DNA of 64,000 nt, from the IMG/VR virus record IMGVR_UViG_3300036985_004624; one strand, given 5' to 3'. Of the stretch, positions 37,769-42,612 are shown piece by piece. The translations under genes were made by a program, and so were the position numbers. The notes under the pieces were generated by a model, which saw only the letters and a list, made by a program, of their open reading frames with translations, made no database searches and was not told the origin of the DNA. Source of the stretch: a virus. Each line of letters opens with the position of its first letter. Position 1 is the stretch's first letter.

Positions 37769-39211
37769 TTACTTCCTCGCGTTAGCGCGAACTTCGTCAA
37801 AGGTGATTTCCTTCACCAAGACACCATCACGATAGACTTCCGAGAGAGCCTCGACCCACGGGCCAATGCTCTTGTCAGCCCAACCACGGGGTTGTTCAAC
37901 AGCAGATTCAAACGAACCGCCGCTTTGCCAAAGAGTCACGCGACCCTTCTTGGATGCCTTGCCGTGATCAGTGATCGGATCCTTGAACACATCACGCCAT
38001 TCTACCCGAGACGGGGTGACAAATGTTGGATCATCGCTAAACTCTACATACTCACGAACACCGATCGCAGAACACTTCATTGCAAAACGCATTGTGTCAC
38101 GATTGACTTGTTGAAGCAGCGCACCACCTTGACCAAATGCCACATTGTCTGCACTGAATCCAGCAAGTTCCATACAGAACAAAATGCTGCGAATTGTAGC
38201 ATGATCAATGCCATCACCTTGGATAACGCGGACATTGTTTAATACACGGAATCCCTTGGCGTTCTTCACAGAACCGTAGTACTTTTCCAGAATGTAAAGA
38301 CACTTGGTGACCACTTCGCTTGGTTCACCAGAGTCAGGACGAATGACAACAACAGCGCCTGAGTCAAGCACGTCTTGTTTCAGTTCTGTGCCCCACATCT
38401 TGCAGGCATTGTAAATGTCGTATGAGTCCGAGACGAACGCAATCGGGGCGCCGGCCTTGCCGTGTGTTTTCAGCATGTTCCTGTAGGAATCTACTTCGTG
38501 GTCCTTGCCCCAGGATGTTACAGTAGAATGCTCCATAGCAGGTATGCTGAACCCAGCAATACCAGCATTATAAAACTCACCTGCGTACAATAACCCAGAT
38601 ATGTTGTCAGTTCCCATGAAGTTAATGAGGTGTGCTGCTCCACCCAATCCGGAACTTTCGAAGCTACTAACGCCACGGGCGCCAAAGTCGTGAAGCTTAA
38701 AATCAATAAGAGTAGGGTCACCAGTTTTCTCCAAGTAGTCAAGAATAATTTTCTTCGATTCGTAGCTGTTTGTAGCTACTGTGGTAGGATACCAGATTGC
38801 GCGCAGAATGGCCGTTTCCAGGAAGCTTGTGAGCCACCAGCACTTCGGGTCGGTGTTGACGATTGTTGCTAGGACGTTCTTAGTCGGAATGAGTGTACCT
38901 TCTGGGGCCGCTTTAATGACGACTGGAAGACGACCTTCGTGCGCCTCAAGAATATATTCCCACCCTTCACGATAAAACGGTTCACCGTGAGCAGTGATAA
39001 TGGCTTCTGCAACATCGATATCTTCCTTGGTGATCGGAGTAGTCAAATACTCCTTGATGAATGCCTGCAATCCGAAAAAGACTGTTTTGTTCCACTGACC
39101 GCCACGCGATTCAATGTAAGAATACACATATTCGGTATTTTTAGGGTATTGATTCCACTGAGAGAATTTATAACTGTCACTATTAAGTATCAGGTTGTGA
39201 GATAATTTCAT
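37769..39211 (-). CDS. nadV: Nicotinamide phosphoribosyltransferase
   Basis: DSYK.S, LHDFGARG, SIPA.EHS, VSDSYD, IRPDSG, QGDG, KDPITD..K.SKKG. Confidence 0.97.
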   Translation of the reverse strand: MKLSHNLILNSDSYKFSQWNQYPKNTEYVYSYIESRGGQWNKTVFFGLQAFIKEYLTTPITKEDIDVAEAIITAHGEPFYREGWEYILEAHEGRLPVVIKAAPEGTLIPTKNVLATIVNTDPKCWWLTSFLETAILRAIWYPTTVATNSYESKKIILDYLEKTGDPTLIDFKLHDFGARGVSSFESSGLGGAAHLINFMGTDNISGLLYAGEFYNAGIAGFSIPAMEHSTVTSWGKDHEVDSYRNMLKTHGKAGAPIAFVSDSYDIYNACKMWGTELKQDVLDSGAVVVIRPDSGEPSEVVTKCLYILEKYYGSVKNAKGFRVLNNVRVIQGDGIDHATIRSILFCMELAGFSADNVAFGQGGALLQQVNRDTMRFAMKCSAIGVREYVEFSDDPTFVTPSRVEWRDVFKDPITDHGKASKKGRVTLWQSGGSFESAVEQPRGWADKSIGPWVEALSEVYRDGVLVKEITFDEVRANARK

Positions 39212-39252
39212 AATAAAGTTCCTTTATTTAAATGCCTAACTCTATCGTCAGG
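39212..39252 (-). promoter_or_regulatory. Two-hairpin leader element, nadV copy
   Basis: CCUGAC-GAUAGA-GUUAGG, then AAUAAAG-GAA-CUUUAUU abutting AUG. Confidence 0.65.
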
Positions 39253-39271
39253 ACTTTTCTTACTATGACTT

Positions 39272-39300
39272 ATTGTAGCAGAATTACTATTTTAAGTCAA
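39272..39300 (-). promoter_or_regulatory. sigma70-type promoter TTGACT-17-TACAAT for nadV
   Basis: Near-consensus; predicts an about 55-nt leader containing both hairpins. Confidence 0.7.
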
Positions 39301-40276
39301 TTTTTTTGGACAATACCAAATTCCCGCACGTAACTAATCCTTGTTCCTCGTCCATCGAAGGAACAAAAACTAACACATCGTAGCCTGCCAGTTTAAGTGA
39401 TTCCTCTACCGTCTTATACGGTAGATAGGAGTCATATCCGCCAACAGTTTTAATGTTGTTTTTCCTACATGCGTCATTATTATGAATCGGAGTAATCTTT
39501 ACCATAAATTTATTCGGATCAAAAAGACCCAATAGCTTATTAGCATCTATTTCGTAGTTAGTGCTATAAGCAAAATTCAAACAATATTTTCTGCCGATAG
39601 GATCAGGCAGTCGATTTCCAATATCGGATATTTCTTTAAGGGTTAGCTGCCCATACGCAAACATATCATTCCGTTGTTCCTCACTAGTTGAATTTATGCT
39701 CAACTGTAATCCTGCCTGGCCATTATATAGCTCATTTTTAATCTGGCACCATTCATTTAATCTCGCTTCATTGTGCTTAAACTTATTCGGTAACGAAGTA
39801 GTTAGAACAGGATGAATAACTTCGGTACGGAGATTTAACTCTTGCTGAATAATATGCTTGTTAGTAAATAACCATCTTGCGAAGTTGAAAACATGATCAT
39901 TAACAATAGGTTCGCCCATCCGAGCAAAATGAATATTCAACCGGTCAGTATAATGAACTTCGGGAAAACATTTTACTGCCTCATAAAACTGTAACTTAAG
40001 ATCGTCGAAGGATGCATTACCTTTAAATGGAATCTTTGGCACATCGCAAAATCGGCAGTTTTGGATACAACCATATTGCGTTGAGAGTGTGATCACCCAT
40101 TTTTCAGATAAGGGCAAACAATTGCCATTTGCAACTCCGTTGATTTCATTTGGAAATCCGAGAAAATCAGCTTTTATGTTTCGTGATTTTCCGTAGTCTC
40201 CGATGGATAATGTTTCGAGTTCGCCACGTAATCCATCGACTGTAAAAAGGTAGCCAGTTGGTATCTTATTTCTCAT
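39287..40276 (-). CDS. RlmN/Cfr-like radical SAM protein
   Basis: STQYGCIQNCRFC (CxxxCxxC), MGEP, LQLSIN, C-terminal CGNL. Confidence 0.85.
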   Translation of the reverse strand: MRNKIPTGYLFTVDGLRGELETLSIGDYGKSRNIKADFLGFPNEINGVANGNCLPLSEKWVITLSTQYGCIQNCRFCDVPKIPFKGNASFDDLKLQFYEAVKCFPEVHYTDRLNIHFARMGEPIVNDHVFNFARWLFTNKHIIQQELNLRTEVIHPVLTTSLPNKFKHNEARLNEWCQIKNELYNGQAGLQLSINSTSEEQRNDMFAYGQLTLKEISDIGNRLPDPIGRKYCLNFAYSTNYEIDANKLLGLFDPNKFMVKITPIHNNDACRKNNIKTVGGYDSYLPYKTVEESLKLAGYDVLVFVPSMDEEQGLVTCGNLVLSKKIDLK

Positions 40277-41187
40277 TATACAATTCCCAATGTTGTACGA
40301 AGCATCGAGATAGTATCATCGTCGTATCGTATTCTAACCATTTTATATCCATTATCGTTTGCATATGATGTCTTAAATTCATCATTAGTCTTCATATCCT
40401 CCAGATCGTTACAACGATATCCTTCCTCATAATGTTGTTTGCCATCATATTCTAATAGAATATTATATTCAGGCAAATAAAAATCATATTTTAATTTACC
40501 TTTATTTCTAATGCAATTATGAAATGTTTTCTGGGTTGTATATTCGATATGATGTCTAATCAAAAAATTTCTAATTAAATTCTCTCCCTTTGATGAAGAA
40601 TTACAACTGGGACAGCCTACACCACGGCCGTGATCATTTGCTTGTTGTTTAAATATGCCGTGCTTGGGACAAATAATCCGAATTTTAGATGTTGCTCGCT
40701 TATAATCTTCGAAAACATAATTGTATCTATATGAATTTCCATGATGGGATATAGAATTCAATAAAAAATCGTTAATTAATATTTCTTTTGCTTCAGTTGC
40801 ACATTCGGGACACCCGCATCCGCTCAAATGATCGCTATATGATTGTTCAAAAACGCCATGTTTTCTACATATAATTTTTAATTTACTACCAGAGGTATAA
40901 TCAGCATCATTTAAGTAATATTCATATAATTCCCCGTGTTTATGGAGTATTTTACTCTTCATATATTCCCACCCCTTTGGACCAAACGGAGAACACGATC
41001 GACACCCGTATTTAGATGCCTTCATTAGGTGGAAGAATGACGTTTCAAATTCACCATGCTCAAAGCAAACAAAAGTTTCTTTATAATCTACACCACGAAA
41101 AATAAATGTAGGCAAGGTTGTAATTTTGTTACCATATTTTTCATATATTTCTGATACAGCAGATGATGTTGTTCGTTTCTTTTTCAT
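40276..41187 (-). mobile_element. Putative homing endonuclease: three C-x-x-HG-x-F zinc repeats plus Vsr/DUF559-like nuclease
   Basis: CFEHGEF, CRKHGVF, CPKHGIF; SKGE..I, YDFYLP..NILLEYDG.QHY. Confidence 0.8.
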
Positions 41188-41231
41188 AGAATATCTCCTA
41201 TATTGTATTTACCGATAATCATCGGAATAGA

Positions 41232-42260
41232 TTATGCAATCAAGGAAGAAATAATTTCAAAATGATCTTCAAAACATACGGCAGAATCCAATTCGCTTAA
41301 CGGCATAAACCGAGCCTTATCAGCGTCGTCTATTCCCCTCACTTTCGGTAATACTCCGTCGGGAAGATCTATTTTAAATACATGGGTTATTGTGCGGCCG
41401 CGAGTACTTCGATCAATGGCATCAAACACCCTGACTTTATTAATATTACCGATCAGTACAGGGGATGGTACTTTAATCCCGGTCTCTTCTCGCAATTCCC
41501 TAATCATAGCATCTTGTATGCTTCGGTCAGTCTGTGCATTTAAAAACCCACCAGGCAATGCCCATAACCCCTTACCGGGTTCACTCTTACGACGAATCAT
41601 TAGTATATGCCCGGAGCATATTACCACTGCATCTGTTGTTACAAAAACAGGCGCATATGGTAAACTTGAATATTGTTTCTTATACATTTCAACAAATTCT
41701 CGTTCTCGAATAATTTGTTCGTATTCAGGTGTATCTTTCCAACCTTCGAGCAATCTAAATACAGGTTGTGGTACAACACCCTGAATAAAGTGCATATTAG
41801 CATCTCGACGAAAGTAAAGATCACGGATATTTGTAGCATTGAGTGGCTCCAATAACGGAACTTCTACTTGTTCCCATTGCGGAAACATATCAAGATAGAA
41901 ACAAGTGCTATCTTTCTTGTGACCAATCACACCAATTTTATCACCGGGCTGTGTATGTTTTGCCACAATAGACTGAATGCGACCAGCCCATGCTGTATCG
42001 TTATAAATTGTGTCTACATTATGCTCTATGCGAACTGCACATTCGGTTTCCGGAACTATATAGTTCAGAATATTTTCGAGCATGTTTTGGCGGTCTTTGC
42101 TTGTCCACGGATTCTTATAAGTCCGTGGTTGATTGGCACTGCCGACAATGATAATAATTTGTTTGGAGAGTTTGCTTGCTCTACGAATAATTTCTGTATG
42201 AGCGTTGTGGACCGGTTGAAAGCGGCCGATGAATACAAGTGTATGATACTGTTTTGTCAT
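41232..42260 (-). CDS. nadM: Bifunctional NMN adenylyltransferase / Nudix ADP-ribose pyrophosphatase
   Basis: FIGRFQPVHNAH, NATNIR; Nudix box GG.......RELREETG. Confidence 0.96.
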   Translation of the reverse strand: MTKQYHTLVFIGRFQPVHNAHTEIIRRASKLSKQIIIIVGSANQPRTYKNPWTSKDRQNMLENILNYIVPETECAVRIEHNVDTIYNDTAWAGRIQSIVAKHTQPGDKIGVIGHKKDSTCFYLDMFPQWEQVEVPLLEPLNATNIRDLYFRRDANMHFIQGVVPQPVFRLLEGWKDTPEYEQIIREREFVEMYKKQYSSLPYAPVFVTTDAVVICSGHILMIRRKSEPGKGLWALPGGFLNAQTDRSIQDAMIRELREETGIKVPSPVLIGNINKVRVFDAIDRSTRGRTITHVFKIDLPDGVLPKVRGIDDADKARFMPLSELDSAVCFEDHFEIISSLIA

Positions 42261-42310
42261 AACATAAATCCTATGTTGTTTAATGATATAGTAAAGTCTA
42301 TCTCTACTAT
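42261..42310 (-). promoter_or_regulatory. Two-hairpin leader element, nadM copy
   Basis: AUAGUAGA-GAUAGA-CUUUACUAU, then AACAUAG-GAU-UUAUGUU abutting AUG. Confidence 0.65.
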
Positions 42311-42351
42311 TGTTATTTAGCCTTTATTATACAATAACGGCATAATCTTGG

Positions 42352-42612
42352 TCAATCTTCGCTAATATTACCCGAGTTATTAACTATGTGCAGGAACTCT
42401 TCCTCTTCTTCGGGTGTCCATTCTAAAAACTCATCGTATATGTCTTCATACGGTTCGCTAAACATGGGGTTTTTTACATTATTGTCTTCCGCCCACTGTT
42501 TGGCTTTAACTAATGCATCTTCCGAAGAAGTTGCATTAATTATAATATGATGTACATCTGATGCAGTAGGTCCGCATTCGACACTAATATTCCATTTTAA
42601 TAATTCTGTCAT
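42352..42612 (-). CDS. Hypothetical protein
   Basis: 86-aa acidic ORF. Confidence 0.6.
   Translation of the reverse strand: MTELLKWNISVECGPTASDVHHIIINATSSEDALVKAKQWAEDNNVKNPMFSEPYEDIYDEFLEWTPEEEEEFLHIVNNSGNISED

What the first reader, a model, noticed from the sequence alone, without database searches (positions are those of the whole stretch)
39212..42310. Covarying two-hairpin RNA leader shared by both NAD-salvage genes (candidate riboswitch or translational operator)
Seen: nadV and nadM-Nudix lie 2 kb apart, each with its own promoter-like sequence, and both leaders share one architecture. First comes a hairpin with GAUAGA at its apex (39235-39252; 42288-42310). Then comes a 7-bp stem with a 3-nt GAW loop that holds the AGGA SD and ends at the base before AUG (AAUAAAG-GAA-CUUUAUU vs AACAUAG-GAU-UUAUGUU). 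The SD stems differ at pairs 3 (U-A vs C-G), 5 (A-U vs U-A) and 7 (G-C vs G-U), and pairing is kept each time. The upstream stems share no sequence beyond GAUAGA, and their closing register differs by one base. Inference: coordinated translational control of phage NAD salvage, through a metabolite (NAD/NMN/ADP-ribose) or a protein such as NadM-Nudix itself. I do not recognise it as the known NAD-I or NAD-II riboswitch classes.
Basis: partly seen in the sequence, partly recalled or inferred. Interest (0 to 1): 0.8.

Follow-up and report, generated by a model that had tools for sequence, protein, structure and literature searches.

The report
Leader RNA controlling NAD-salvage genes
Both NAD-rebuilding genes of this large phage start with the same small two-hairpin RNA, an uncatalogued control element found almost only before these two genes in many phages and bacteria, and comparative evidence points to one of the enzymes (NadM-Nudix) binding it to turn down its own costly pathway.

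Summary
nadV and nadM-Nudix each carry a 5' hairpin (loop AUAGA) and a weak hairpin with the Shine-Dalgarno GGA in its loop. In 63 sequence-aligned leaders from phages and bacteria, 90% of cells pair and all 13 pairs show double-sided changes. G.U outnumbers A.C 37:6, so it acts as RNA. A gene-blind scan put 42 of 42 viral two-hairpin matches at nadM/nadV operons; no other of 67 window genes has it. No Rfam family or paper matched. A riboswitch is unlikely: only the loops are conserved, with no pseudoknot or alternative fold. It occurs where fused NadM-Nudix and NadV coexist. A NadM segment just after the Nudix box (residues 257-271) is kept with the element, lost without it, and altered where the loops change; NadV shows no such signal. 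The phylogenetic sign test was not significant (p 0.25). Best reading (about 0.6): an autogenous translational operator read by NadM-Nudix; binding and ligand are inferred. This scan reported the element before on other genomes; the protein segment and the need for both genes did not appear in the short notes I could see.

The parts
37769..39211 (-). nadV, nicotinamide phosphoribosyltransferase (480 aa); regulated gene
   Evidence: Pfam NAMPT_N + NAPRTase; NCBIfam PRK09198 594.7 bits, cut-off 405; 42% identical to KVP40 NadV
39212..39228 (-). nadV SD hairpin, 6 bp, loop GGAAC (39222-39218)
39234..39254 (-). nadV hairpin 1, core 39235-39252, loop GAUAGA (hexaloop variant of the family pentaloop)
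   Evidence: an A-to-G/A-to-G type pair swap keeps the stem in the close relative L001
39272..39300 (-). sigma70-like promoter of nadV with extended -10; predicted start near 39265, about 10 nt before hairpin 1 (inferred)
   Evidence: similar spacing in relatives
39287..41187 (-). RlmN/Cfr-like radical SAM gene and endonuclease-like gene lying between the two NAD genes; passengers, no element in front of them here
   Evidence: 1.8 kb of this is missing in relative L001 and in an RNA contig
41232..42260 (-). nadM-Nudix, bifunctional NMN adenylyltransferase / ADP-ribose pyrophosphatase (342 aa); regulated gene and best candidate reader
   Evidence: (PDB 2qjo E 3e-78); HxxH and Nudix box intact
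41448..41492 (-). NadM residues 257-271: end of the Nudix-box helix, loop and short helix 266-271; segment that tracks the RNA element (with residue 308 at 41337-41339)
42261..42277 (-). nadM SD hairpin, 6 bp, loop GGAUU (42271-42267)
42288..42310 (-). nadM hairpin 1, 9 bp, G-C closed loop AUAGA (42301-42297); the family consensus form
42314..42320 (-). TAAATA late-promoter-like site ending just before hairpin 1; a transcript from it would still hold both hairpins (inferred)
   Evidence: in 17 of 67 window leaders; 0-8 nt before hairpin 1 in 17 of 26 nadM/first-gene leaders against 1 of 26 nadV leaders
42326..42355 (-). sigma70-like promoter of nadM, 11 of 12 matches; predicted start near 42319 (inferred)
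   Evidence: kept in relatives whose upstream gene differs

Best explanation
The element is an autogenous translational operator of the nadM-Nudix/nadV NAD-salvage module. SHOWN by comparison: a roughly 55-nt 5' leader of two pentaloop hairpins on a flexible linker, conserved as RNA structure, the second holding the SD and ending next to the start codon, found almost only at these genes. INFERRED: oligomeric NadM-Nudix binds the two loops with two equivalent sites, using or depending on the segment after the Nudix box (residues 257-271, 308). Binding stabilises the weak SD hairpin and blocks 30S entry, so the enzyme caps synthesis of itself and of NadV even when the genes are unlinked. SPECULATIVE: occupancy of the Nudix site by ADP-ribose (or of the other site by NAD/NMN) loosens the RNA, as ADP-ribose does for NrtR on DNA, so the pathway rises when NAD is being destroyed.
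For: Structure: 90% of cells paired, 13/13 pairs with double changes, 0/500 shuffles, slid controls 27-45% (104 model-aligned rows). RNA not DNA: G.U 37 vs A.C 6, p 2e-6. Specificity. Two equivalent sites: in several lineages both hairpins carry the same loop (GGAGU in Roseibium, AGAGA in RSL1 and L036, GUAGA in L026/L043/L047), and the nadM and nadV leaders of one genome share the loop class in 59 of 67 loci. Reader travels with the genes: the same loop occurs in phages of cyanobacteria and Alphaproteobacteria and in gammaproteobacterial chromosomes. Needs fused NadM: complete in 15 of 17 nadV genomes with NadM-Nudix (one hairpin in the other two), in 1 of 21 without; absent before 15 stand-alone NadM and 4 Acinetobacter-type nadV genes. 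Protein signature: P265, V268, L269, G271 are 88-100% kept in 122 element-bearing NadM and 4-35% in 23 element-less ones while catalytic residues stay; best 15-residue window scores 3.38 against 1.19 next and 0.78 for the best in NadV; 51 of 52 proteins without the segment lack the canonical element; segment and element both decayed in two genomes that keep nadV (L490, L501). A split nadV carries a copy before each half (L052). NARP2 overproduces NAD, spends PRPP and was toxic to clone in E. coli (10.1101/2024.02.11.579819), which gives a reason for feedback.
Against: No binding, reporter or probing data. The independent-pairs test was not significant (7 supported pairs, 3.2 same way, 0 opposite, p 0.25), and my labels were refined once after seeing misses. 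The element is also missing from 20 of 22 Moraxellaceae genomes with fused nadM but no nadV found, so co-occurrence alone does not single out NadM. Exceptions: G008 has the element at nadV with no NadM found (fragmentary assembly); L308 has the canonical element with an altered segment; 21 proteins keep the segment without the canonical element. The segment is mostly hydrophobic and could be an oligomer interface (kept in hexameric Synechocystis NadM, lost in Francisella NadM; alignment, oligomer states from my own knowledge). NadM has no recognised RNA-binding domain. The SD hairpin is not in the minimum-energy fold of the longer mRNA.
Confidence: 0.6

Rival explanations
1. NadV, or a NadV-NadM complex, is the reader (as the phosphoribosyltransferase homolog PyrR reads RNA hairpins); the NadM segment would then be a NadV-docking surface.
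For: The element is lost in 20 of 22 genomes with fused nadM and no nadV found; G008 has element plus nadV and no NadM found; NadV is a dimer (own knowledge).
Against: No NadV column or cluster tracks the element (best drop 0.28). Same-clade nadV genes without fused NadM lack it (20 of 21). The NadM segment decayed with the RNA in L490 and L501, where nadV is intact and adjacent, and changes with the RNA loop type. G068 and G132 have element plus nadM and no NadV found.
Confidence: 0.13
2. A minimal riboswitch: the two loops form a pocket for NAD, NMN, ADP-ribose or PRPP and the SD hairpin is the expression platform.
For: Strict association with one pathway; position over the SD; small riboswitches such as preQ1-I exist (own knowledge).
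Against: Only about 7 + 5 nt are conserved; loop-to-loop spacing runs 23-34 nt, longer with an inserted hairpin in Psychrobacter-like loci. No conserved complement of loop 1 downstream (15 of 84) and no alternative partner for the anti-SD arm (4 of 84). Loops change between lineages in step with a protein segment, which an unchanging metabolite would not cause. It is lost where nadV has other partners although the ligand would still be there.
Confidence: 0.1
3. A host or other trans factor reads it (CsrA/RsmA, a ribosomal protein, a RegA-like phage repressor).
For: GGA sits in a hairpin loop at the SD, as in CsrA targets (own knowledge).
Against: 0 of 88 sites match the C-ANGGAN-G CsrA geometry; hairpin 1 has no GGA in the main form; hosts span Cyanobacteria and three proteobacterial classes; a global regulator should have more than 1-3 sites per genome; bacterial chromosomes rule out a phage-only protein.
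Confidence: 0.08
4. No ligand: hairpin 1 protects the 5' end of the mRNA and the SD hairpin sets a fixed low translation rate.
For: Hairpin 1 lies at the predicted 5' end; the SD stem is weak.
Against: It does not explain the conserved loop sequence with free stems, the matching loops on both hairpins and both genes, or the tie to a NadM segment.
Confidence: 0.07
5. A palindromic DNA operator of NrtR type, or a T4-type early block relieved by a late promoter inside the stem.
For: NrtR controls nadM-nadV in Synechocystis (PMC2330246); a late-promoter-like site is in the nadM leader.
Against: G.U over A.C bias, arms without sequence conservation, fixed orientation; GT-N7-AC centred in 1 of 81 sites; the TAAATA site lies upstream of hairpin 1, so late transcripts keep the whole element.
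Confidence: 0.02

Closest known systems
Autogenous translational operators read by enzymes: E. coli thrS operator (ThrRS dimer binds two stem-loops), T4/RB69 gene 43 operator (own knowledge; the analogy also appears in earlier scan notes)
   Same: Two hairpins with conserved loops and free stems next to the SD of the enzyme's own mRNA; likely two-site binding by an oligomer.
   Different: No sequence or structural homology tested or claimed; here the SD is inside one hairpin, the site is repeated on a second pathway gene, and the proposed reader is an NMN adenylyltransferase/Nudix enzyme with no described RNA role.
PyrR binding loops of the Bacillus pyr operon (own knowledge)
   Same: A nucleotide-metabolism enzyme fold reads repeated leader hairpins of its own pathway, tuned by nucleotides.
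   Different: PyrR acts by attenuation and its site is in Rfam; no Rfam match here; no terminator or antiterminator in these leaders.
NAD+-I (nadA) and NAD+-II (pnuC) riboswitches (PMC7749635)
   Same: 5' leader elements of NAD-metabolism genes; NAD+-II also involves the ribosome-binding site.
   Different: NAD+-I has tandem aptamer domains; NAD+-II has nested P1/P1a plus a pseudoknot, with a variable unimportant loop. Here there are two side-by-side hairpins, the loops are the conserved part and there is no pseudoknot.
NrtR regulon (PMC2330246)
   Same: Same target genes (nadM-nadV); a Nudix domain as the likely sensor; ADP-ribose as a plausible effector.
   Different: NrtR is a separate HTH protein on a 21-bp DNA palindrome with GT-N7-AC; this element behaves as RNA and lacks that core.
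NARP2 anti-defence pathway (Nampt + Nmnat of KVP40; 10.1101/2024.02.11.579819)
   Same: The regulated genes are NARP2 homologs (42% and 32% identity).
   Different: The passages read describe no control element. KVP40 itself has only the SD hairpin, on both genes.

Membership tests
Any Rfam family | Score at or above the gathering threshold | tested here: not met
   0 hits in the window; best local hit 22.6 bits against 75 needed, on the wrong strand
NAD+-II riboswitch | Nested P1/P1a with a pseudoknot to the RBS region | tested here: not met
   Side-by-side hairpins; complement of loop 1 downstream in only 15 of 84
NAD+-I riboswitch | Tandem aptamer domains of the nadA motif | tested here: not met
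   No Rfam match; only short loops conserved
Riboswitch (any class) | Protein-free, selective metabolite binding | not testable with these tools
   Needs in-line probing or calorimetry
Riboswitch (any class) | Conserved alternative structure linking sensor and SD | tested here: not met
   Alternative partner for the anti-SD arm in 4 of 84
Autogenous translational operator | Conserved RNA structure overlapping the ribosome-binding site of the regulator's own gene or operon | tested here: met
Autogenous translational operator | Co-distribution and co-variation with the encoded protein | tested here: inconclusive
   Strong raw association and a localised NadM segment, but sign test p 0.25 and nadV is needed too
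Autogenous translational operator | Direct binding and repression by the protein | not testable with these tools
   No protein-RNA tool or assay available
NrtR DNA operator | 21-bp palindrome with GT-N7-AC core, strand-symmetric | tested here: not met
   1 of 81; G.U bias
CsrA/RsmA site | ANGGAN hexaloop closed by C-G (definition from own knowledge) | tested here: not met
   0 of 88
NARP2 (the regulated genes) | Nampt plus Nmnat homologs in one phage | tested here: met
   anti-defence activity itself not tested

The most novel reading that the evidence does not exclude
NadM-Nudix moonlights as a metabolite-switched RNA-binding repressor: ADP-ribose released when host defence systems destroy NAD frees the leader, so the phage (or bacterium) raises its NAD-rebuilding pathway only under attack. 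This would be an RNA-level counterpart of NrtR, an immune-activity sensor in phages, and a new RNA-binding surface on a Nudix fold.
Probability: 0.28. Interest if true: 0.88.

Novelty: new variant of a known kind. Interest (0 to 1): 0.72.

Why it matters
NARP2 is a published anti-defence pathway described as always on and costly (it spends PRPP and overproduces NAD), and I found no description of how it is controlled. This element is a widespread, uncatalogued cis-regulatory RNA family shared by jumbo phages, cyanophages and many proteobacteria, and the analysis names a reader, a 15-residue surface and natural loop/protein variants that allow swap tests. If right, it adds a metabolic enzyme to the short list of moonlighting translational repressors and explains how phages dose an anti-defence pathway. 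It is directly testable with cultured phages (B23, MD18, BF, KVP40) and standard reporters.

Tried and rejected
No whole genome is held for the window. Rfam: nothing at gathering score, chance-level hits only by E-value. Literature: no paper on the element in searches; the 224-motif paper has no such motif in its main text and its supplements are not held; the NadM structure paper is not held; most subscription papers are outside the library, so absence is not proof. Freshwater RNA contigs cover parts of nadM, its leader and nadV but cannot show strand, start or level: not used as evidence. Homodimer prediction of NadM gave no verdict (score 0.66, one control 0.74). The fold search only returned the known NadM and Nudix structures, with no RNA-bound relative of note. 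The radical SAM gene was considered as reader or regular regulon member and rejected: none of 13 unrelated full-length viral homologs lies beside nadV or nadM or has the element. The first pair counts selected on pairing, so the G.U test was repeated with a sequence-only anchor. Phylogenetic sign tests lacked power. The Synechocystis and Francisella leaders could not be fetched. Weak model hits at L514, L517, L518 and L135 look like chance.
Full report
1. The observation. Both genes lie on the minus strand: nadV 37769-39211 and nadM-Nudix 41232-42260, with a radical SAM gene and an endonuclease-like gene between them. The two-hairpin leaders fold better than shuffles (z about -2.9); hairpin 1 is stable (-7.9 kcal/mol), the SD hairpin weak (-2.4, -2.7). 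Sigma70-like promoters put the predicted starts about 10 nt before hairpin 1. A TAAATA site, present in 17 of 67 window leaders and so probably a late promoter, ends just before nadM hairpin 1 here and in 17 of 26 related nadM or first-gene leaders. Transcripts from either promoter would therefore contain the whole element, which argues against the T4 mechanism of a late start inside the stem.

2. It is a conserved RNA family. Leaders of nadV and nadM homologs from 68 viral loci and 55 bacterial loci show the same plan: a stem of free sequence closed by G-C on the loop AUAGA, a linker, and a second stem with GGANN in the loop ending next to the start codon. Loop-to-loop distance is 23-34 nt. 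On a sequence-only alignment of 63 leaders, 90.3% of cells pair, all 13 pairs show changes on both sides, none of 500 shuffles reaches this and slid controls give 27-45%; the 104-row model-fitted alignment agrees. These rows were chosen for having hairpins, so I repeated the test with a sequence-only anchor: 46 of 61 leader sites pair at 5 or 6 of 6 positions against 5 of 95 other sites with the same 7-mer, and G.U outnumbers A.C 37 to 6 (p 2e-6). That asymmetry is expected for single-stranded RNA, not for a DNA palindrome. The NrtR core is centred in 1 of 81 sites.

3. It is specific. Of leaders in the viral loci, 20 of 46 nadM and 26 of 52 nadV have the strict form against 5 of 423 other genes, and those five are first genes of nadM operons or lie between nadM and nadV. 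The model finds two sites in the window and one to three per whole 134-385 kb record, all significant ones at these genes. A gene-blind pattern scan gave 80 distinct viral matches: all 42 that form both hairpins lie at nadM/nadV operons; in metagenomes 13 of 17 do, three more sit at contig ends and one has no frame. In L052 nadV is split by an insertion and each half has its own copy. Named carriers include Synechococcus phages B23 and BUCT-ZZ01, Phaeobacter phage MD18, Serratia phage BF, Ralstonia phages RSP15 and RSL1 and Ochrobactrum phage OC; KVP40 and RB43 keep only the SD hairpin; the Caulobacter phages CbK and BL9 have none.

4. Not catalogued, as far as I could search. No Rfam family matches and six literature searches found no description. 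It does not meet the definitions of NAD+-I or NAD+-II. This scan has noted the element on about nine other genomes; those notes are not independent support.

5. What reads it. (a) The architecture is that of a two-site protein operator. In Roseibium both hairpins have the loop GGAGU, in RSL1 and L036 the SD loop is AGAGA (both loops in L036), in L026/L043/L047 both are GUAGA, and the two genes of one genome share the loop class in 59 of 67 loci. No conserved pseudoknot or alternative fold exists. (b) Distribution: among 38 nadV-bearing bacterial genomes the complete element is in 15 of 17 with fused NadM-Nudix and 1 of 21 without; stand-alone NadM and Acinetobacter-type nadV lack it. But it is also missing in 20 of 22 Moraxellaceae genomes with fused nadM and no nadV found. 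(c) Protein signature: comparing element-bearing with element-less proteins, NadM shows one cluster, residues 257-271 after the Nudix box plus 308, while catalytic positions are unchanged. The best window scores 3.38 against 1.19 for the next and 0.78 for the best in NadV. In the model (pLDDT 93) this is a loop and short helix 266-271. Of 52 proteins without the segment, 51 lack the canonical element; the segment changes 15 times on the tree. It decayed together with the leader in two genomes that keep an intact adjacent nadV (L490, L501), and it takes other forms in the lineages with other loops. Limits: the supported-branch sign test gave p 0.25, labels came from my own rules, one phage (L308) and one fragmentary genome (G008) are exceptions, and the segment could be an oligomer interface rather than the RNA contact.

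6. Mechanism. Shown by comparison: a structured RNA over the ribosome-binding site of both pathway genes. Inferred (0.6): NadM-Nudix binds both loops, clamps the weak SD hairpin and limits translation of nadM and nadV. Speculative (about half of that): ADP-ribose or NAD tunes binding, by analogy with NrtR (PMC2330246). The motive is plausible: NARP2 makes excess NAD without any defence present, spends PRPP and was toxic to clone. Rivals: NadV or a complex 0.13, riboswitch 0.10, host factor 0.08, ligand-free structure 0.07, DNA site 0.02.

7. Verdict. A real, widespread, uncatalogued cis-regulatory RNA family. It most likely works like the thrS, gene 43 or PyrR operators but is not a member of any of them: a new variant of a known kind. 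Interest 0.72; 0.88 if it proves to be an ADP-ribose-switched sensor of NAD-destroying immunity.

Noticed in passing
window 39424-41225: This 1.8 kb (endonuclease-like gene plus most of the radical SAM gene) is missing in the close relative L001 and in a freshwater-sediment RNA contig, leaving the last 46 codons of the radical SAM gene; the joint has a short microhomology, so it looks like a deletion polymorphism.
   Followed up: partly
window 39287-40276; L003 2533-2581; L159 1501-1556: RlmN/Cfr-like radical SAM gene, far below family cut-offs. Usually unlinked to NAD genes, but in one phage and one bacterial assembly it sits in the NAD cluster with its own copy of the RNA element.
   Followed up: partly
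L052 6312-9041: nadV split in two by a 1.2 kb insertion, each half with its own SD and RNA element; suggests a two-chain NadV.
   Followed up: partly
L098-L108, L118 upstream of nadM: Roseibium-type promoters carry a DNA palindrome resembling the NadQ box (from memory) just upstream of the GGAGU form of the RNA element: probable dual control.
   Followed up: no
L175-L192 upstream of nadV: Psychrobacter-like loci insert an extra hairpin in the linker, lengthening it to 50-90 nt while keeping both conserved hairpins.
   Followed up: partly
L006, L017, L051, L055, L061, L063, L066, L287 first genes: Unknown 106-125 aa genes head some nadM operons and take the element; no Pfam family; at least three unrelated types.
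   Followed up: partly
window, 17 of 67 gene leaders: A C/A-TAAATA motif, mostly 23-40 nt before the start codon, probably this phage's late promoter.
   Followed up: partly
L352 2215-4500: NadV of 769 aa with a roughly 300-residue in-frame insertion near residue 290, possibly an intein.
   Followed up: no
L481-L489, L508 upstream of nadV: Some Moraxellaceae leaders have a third hairpin upstream whose loop resembles the SD loop, a possible three-site form.
   Followed up: no
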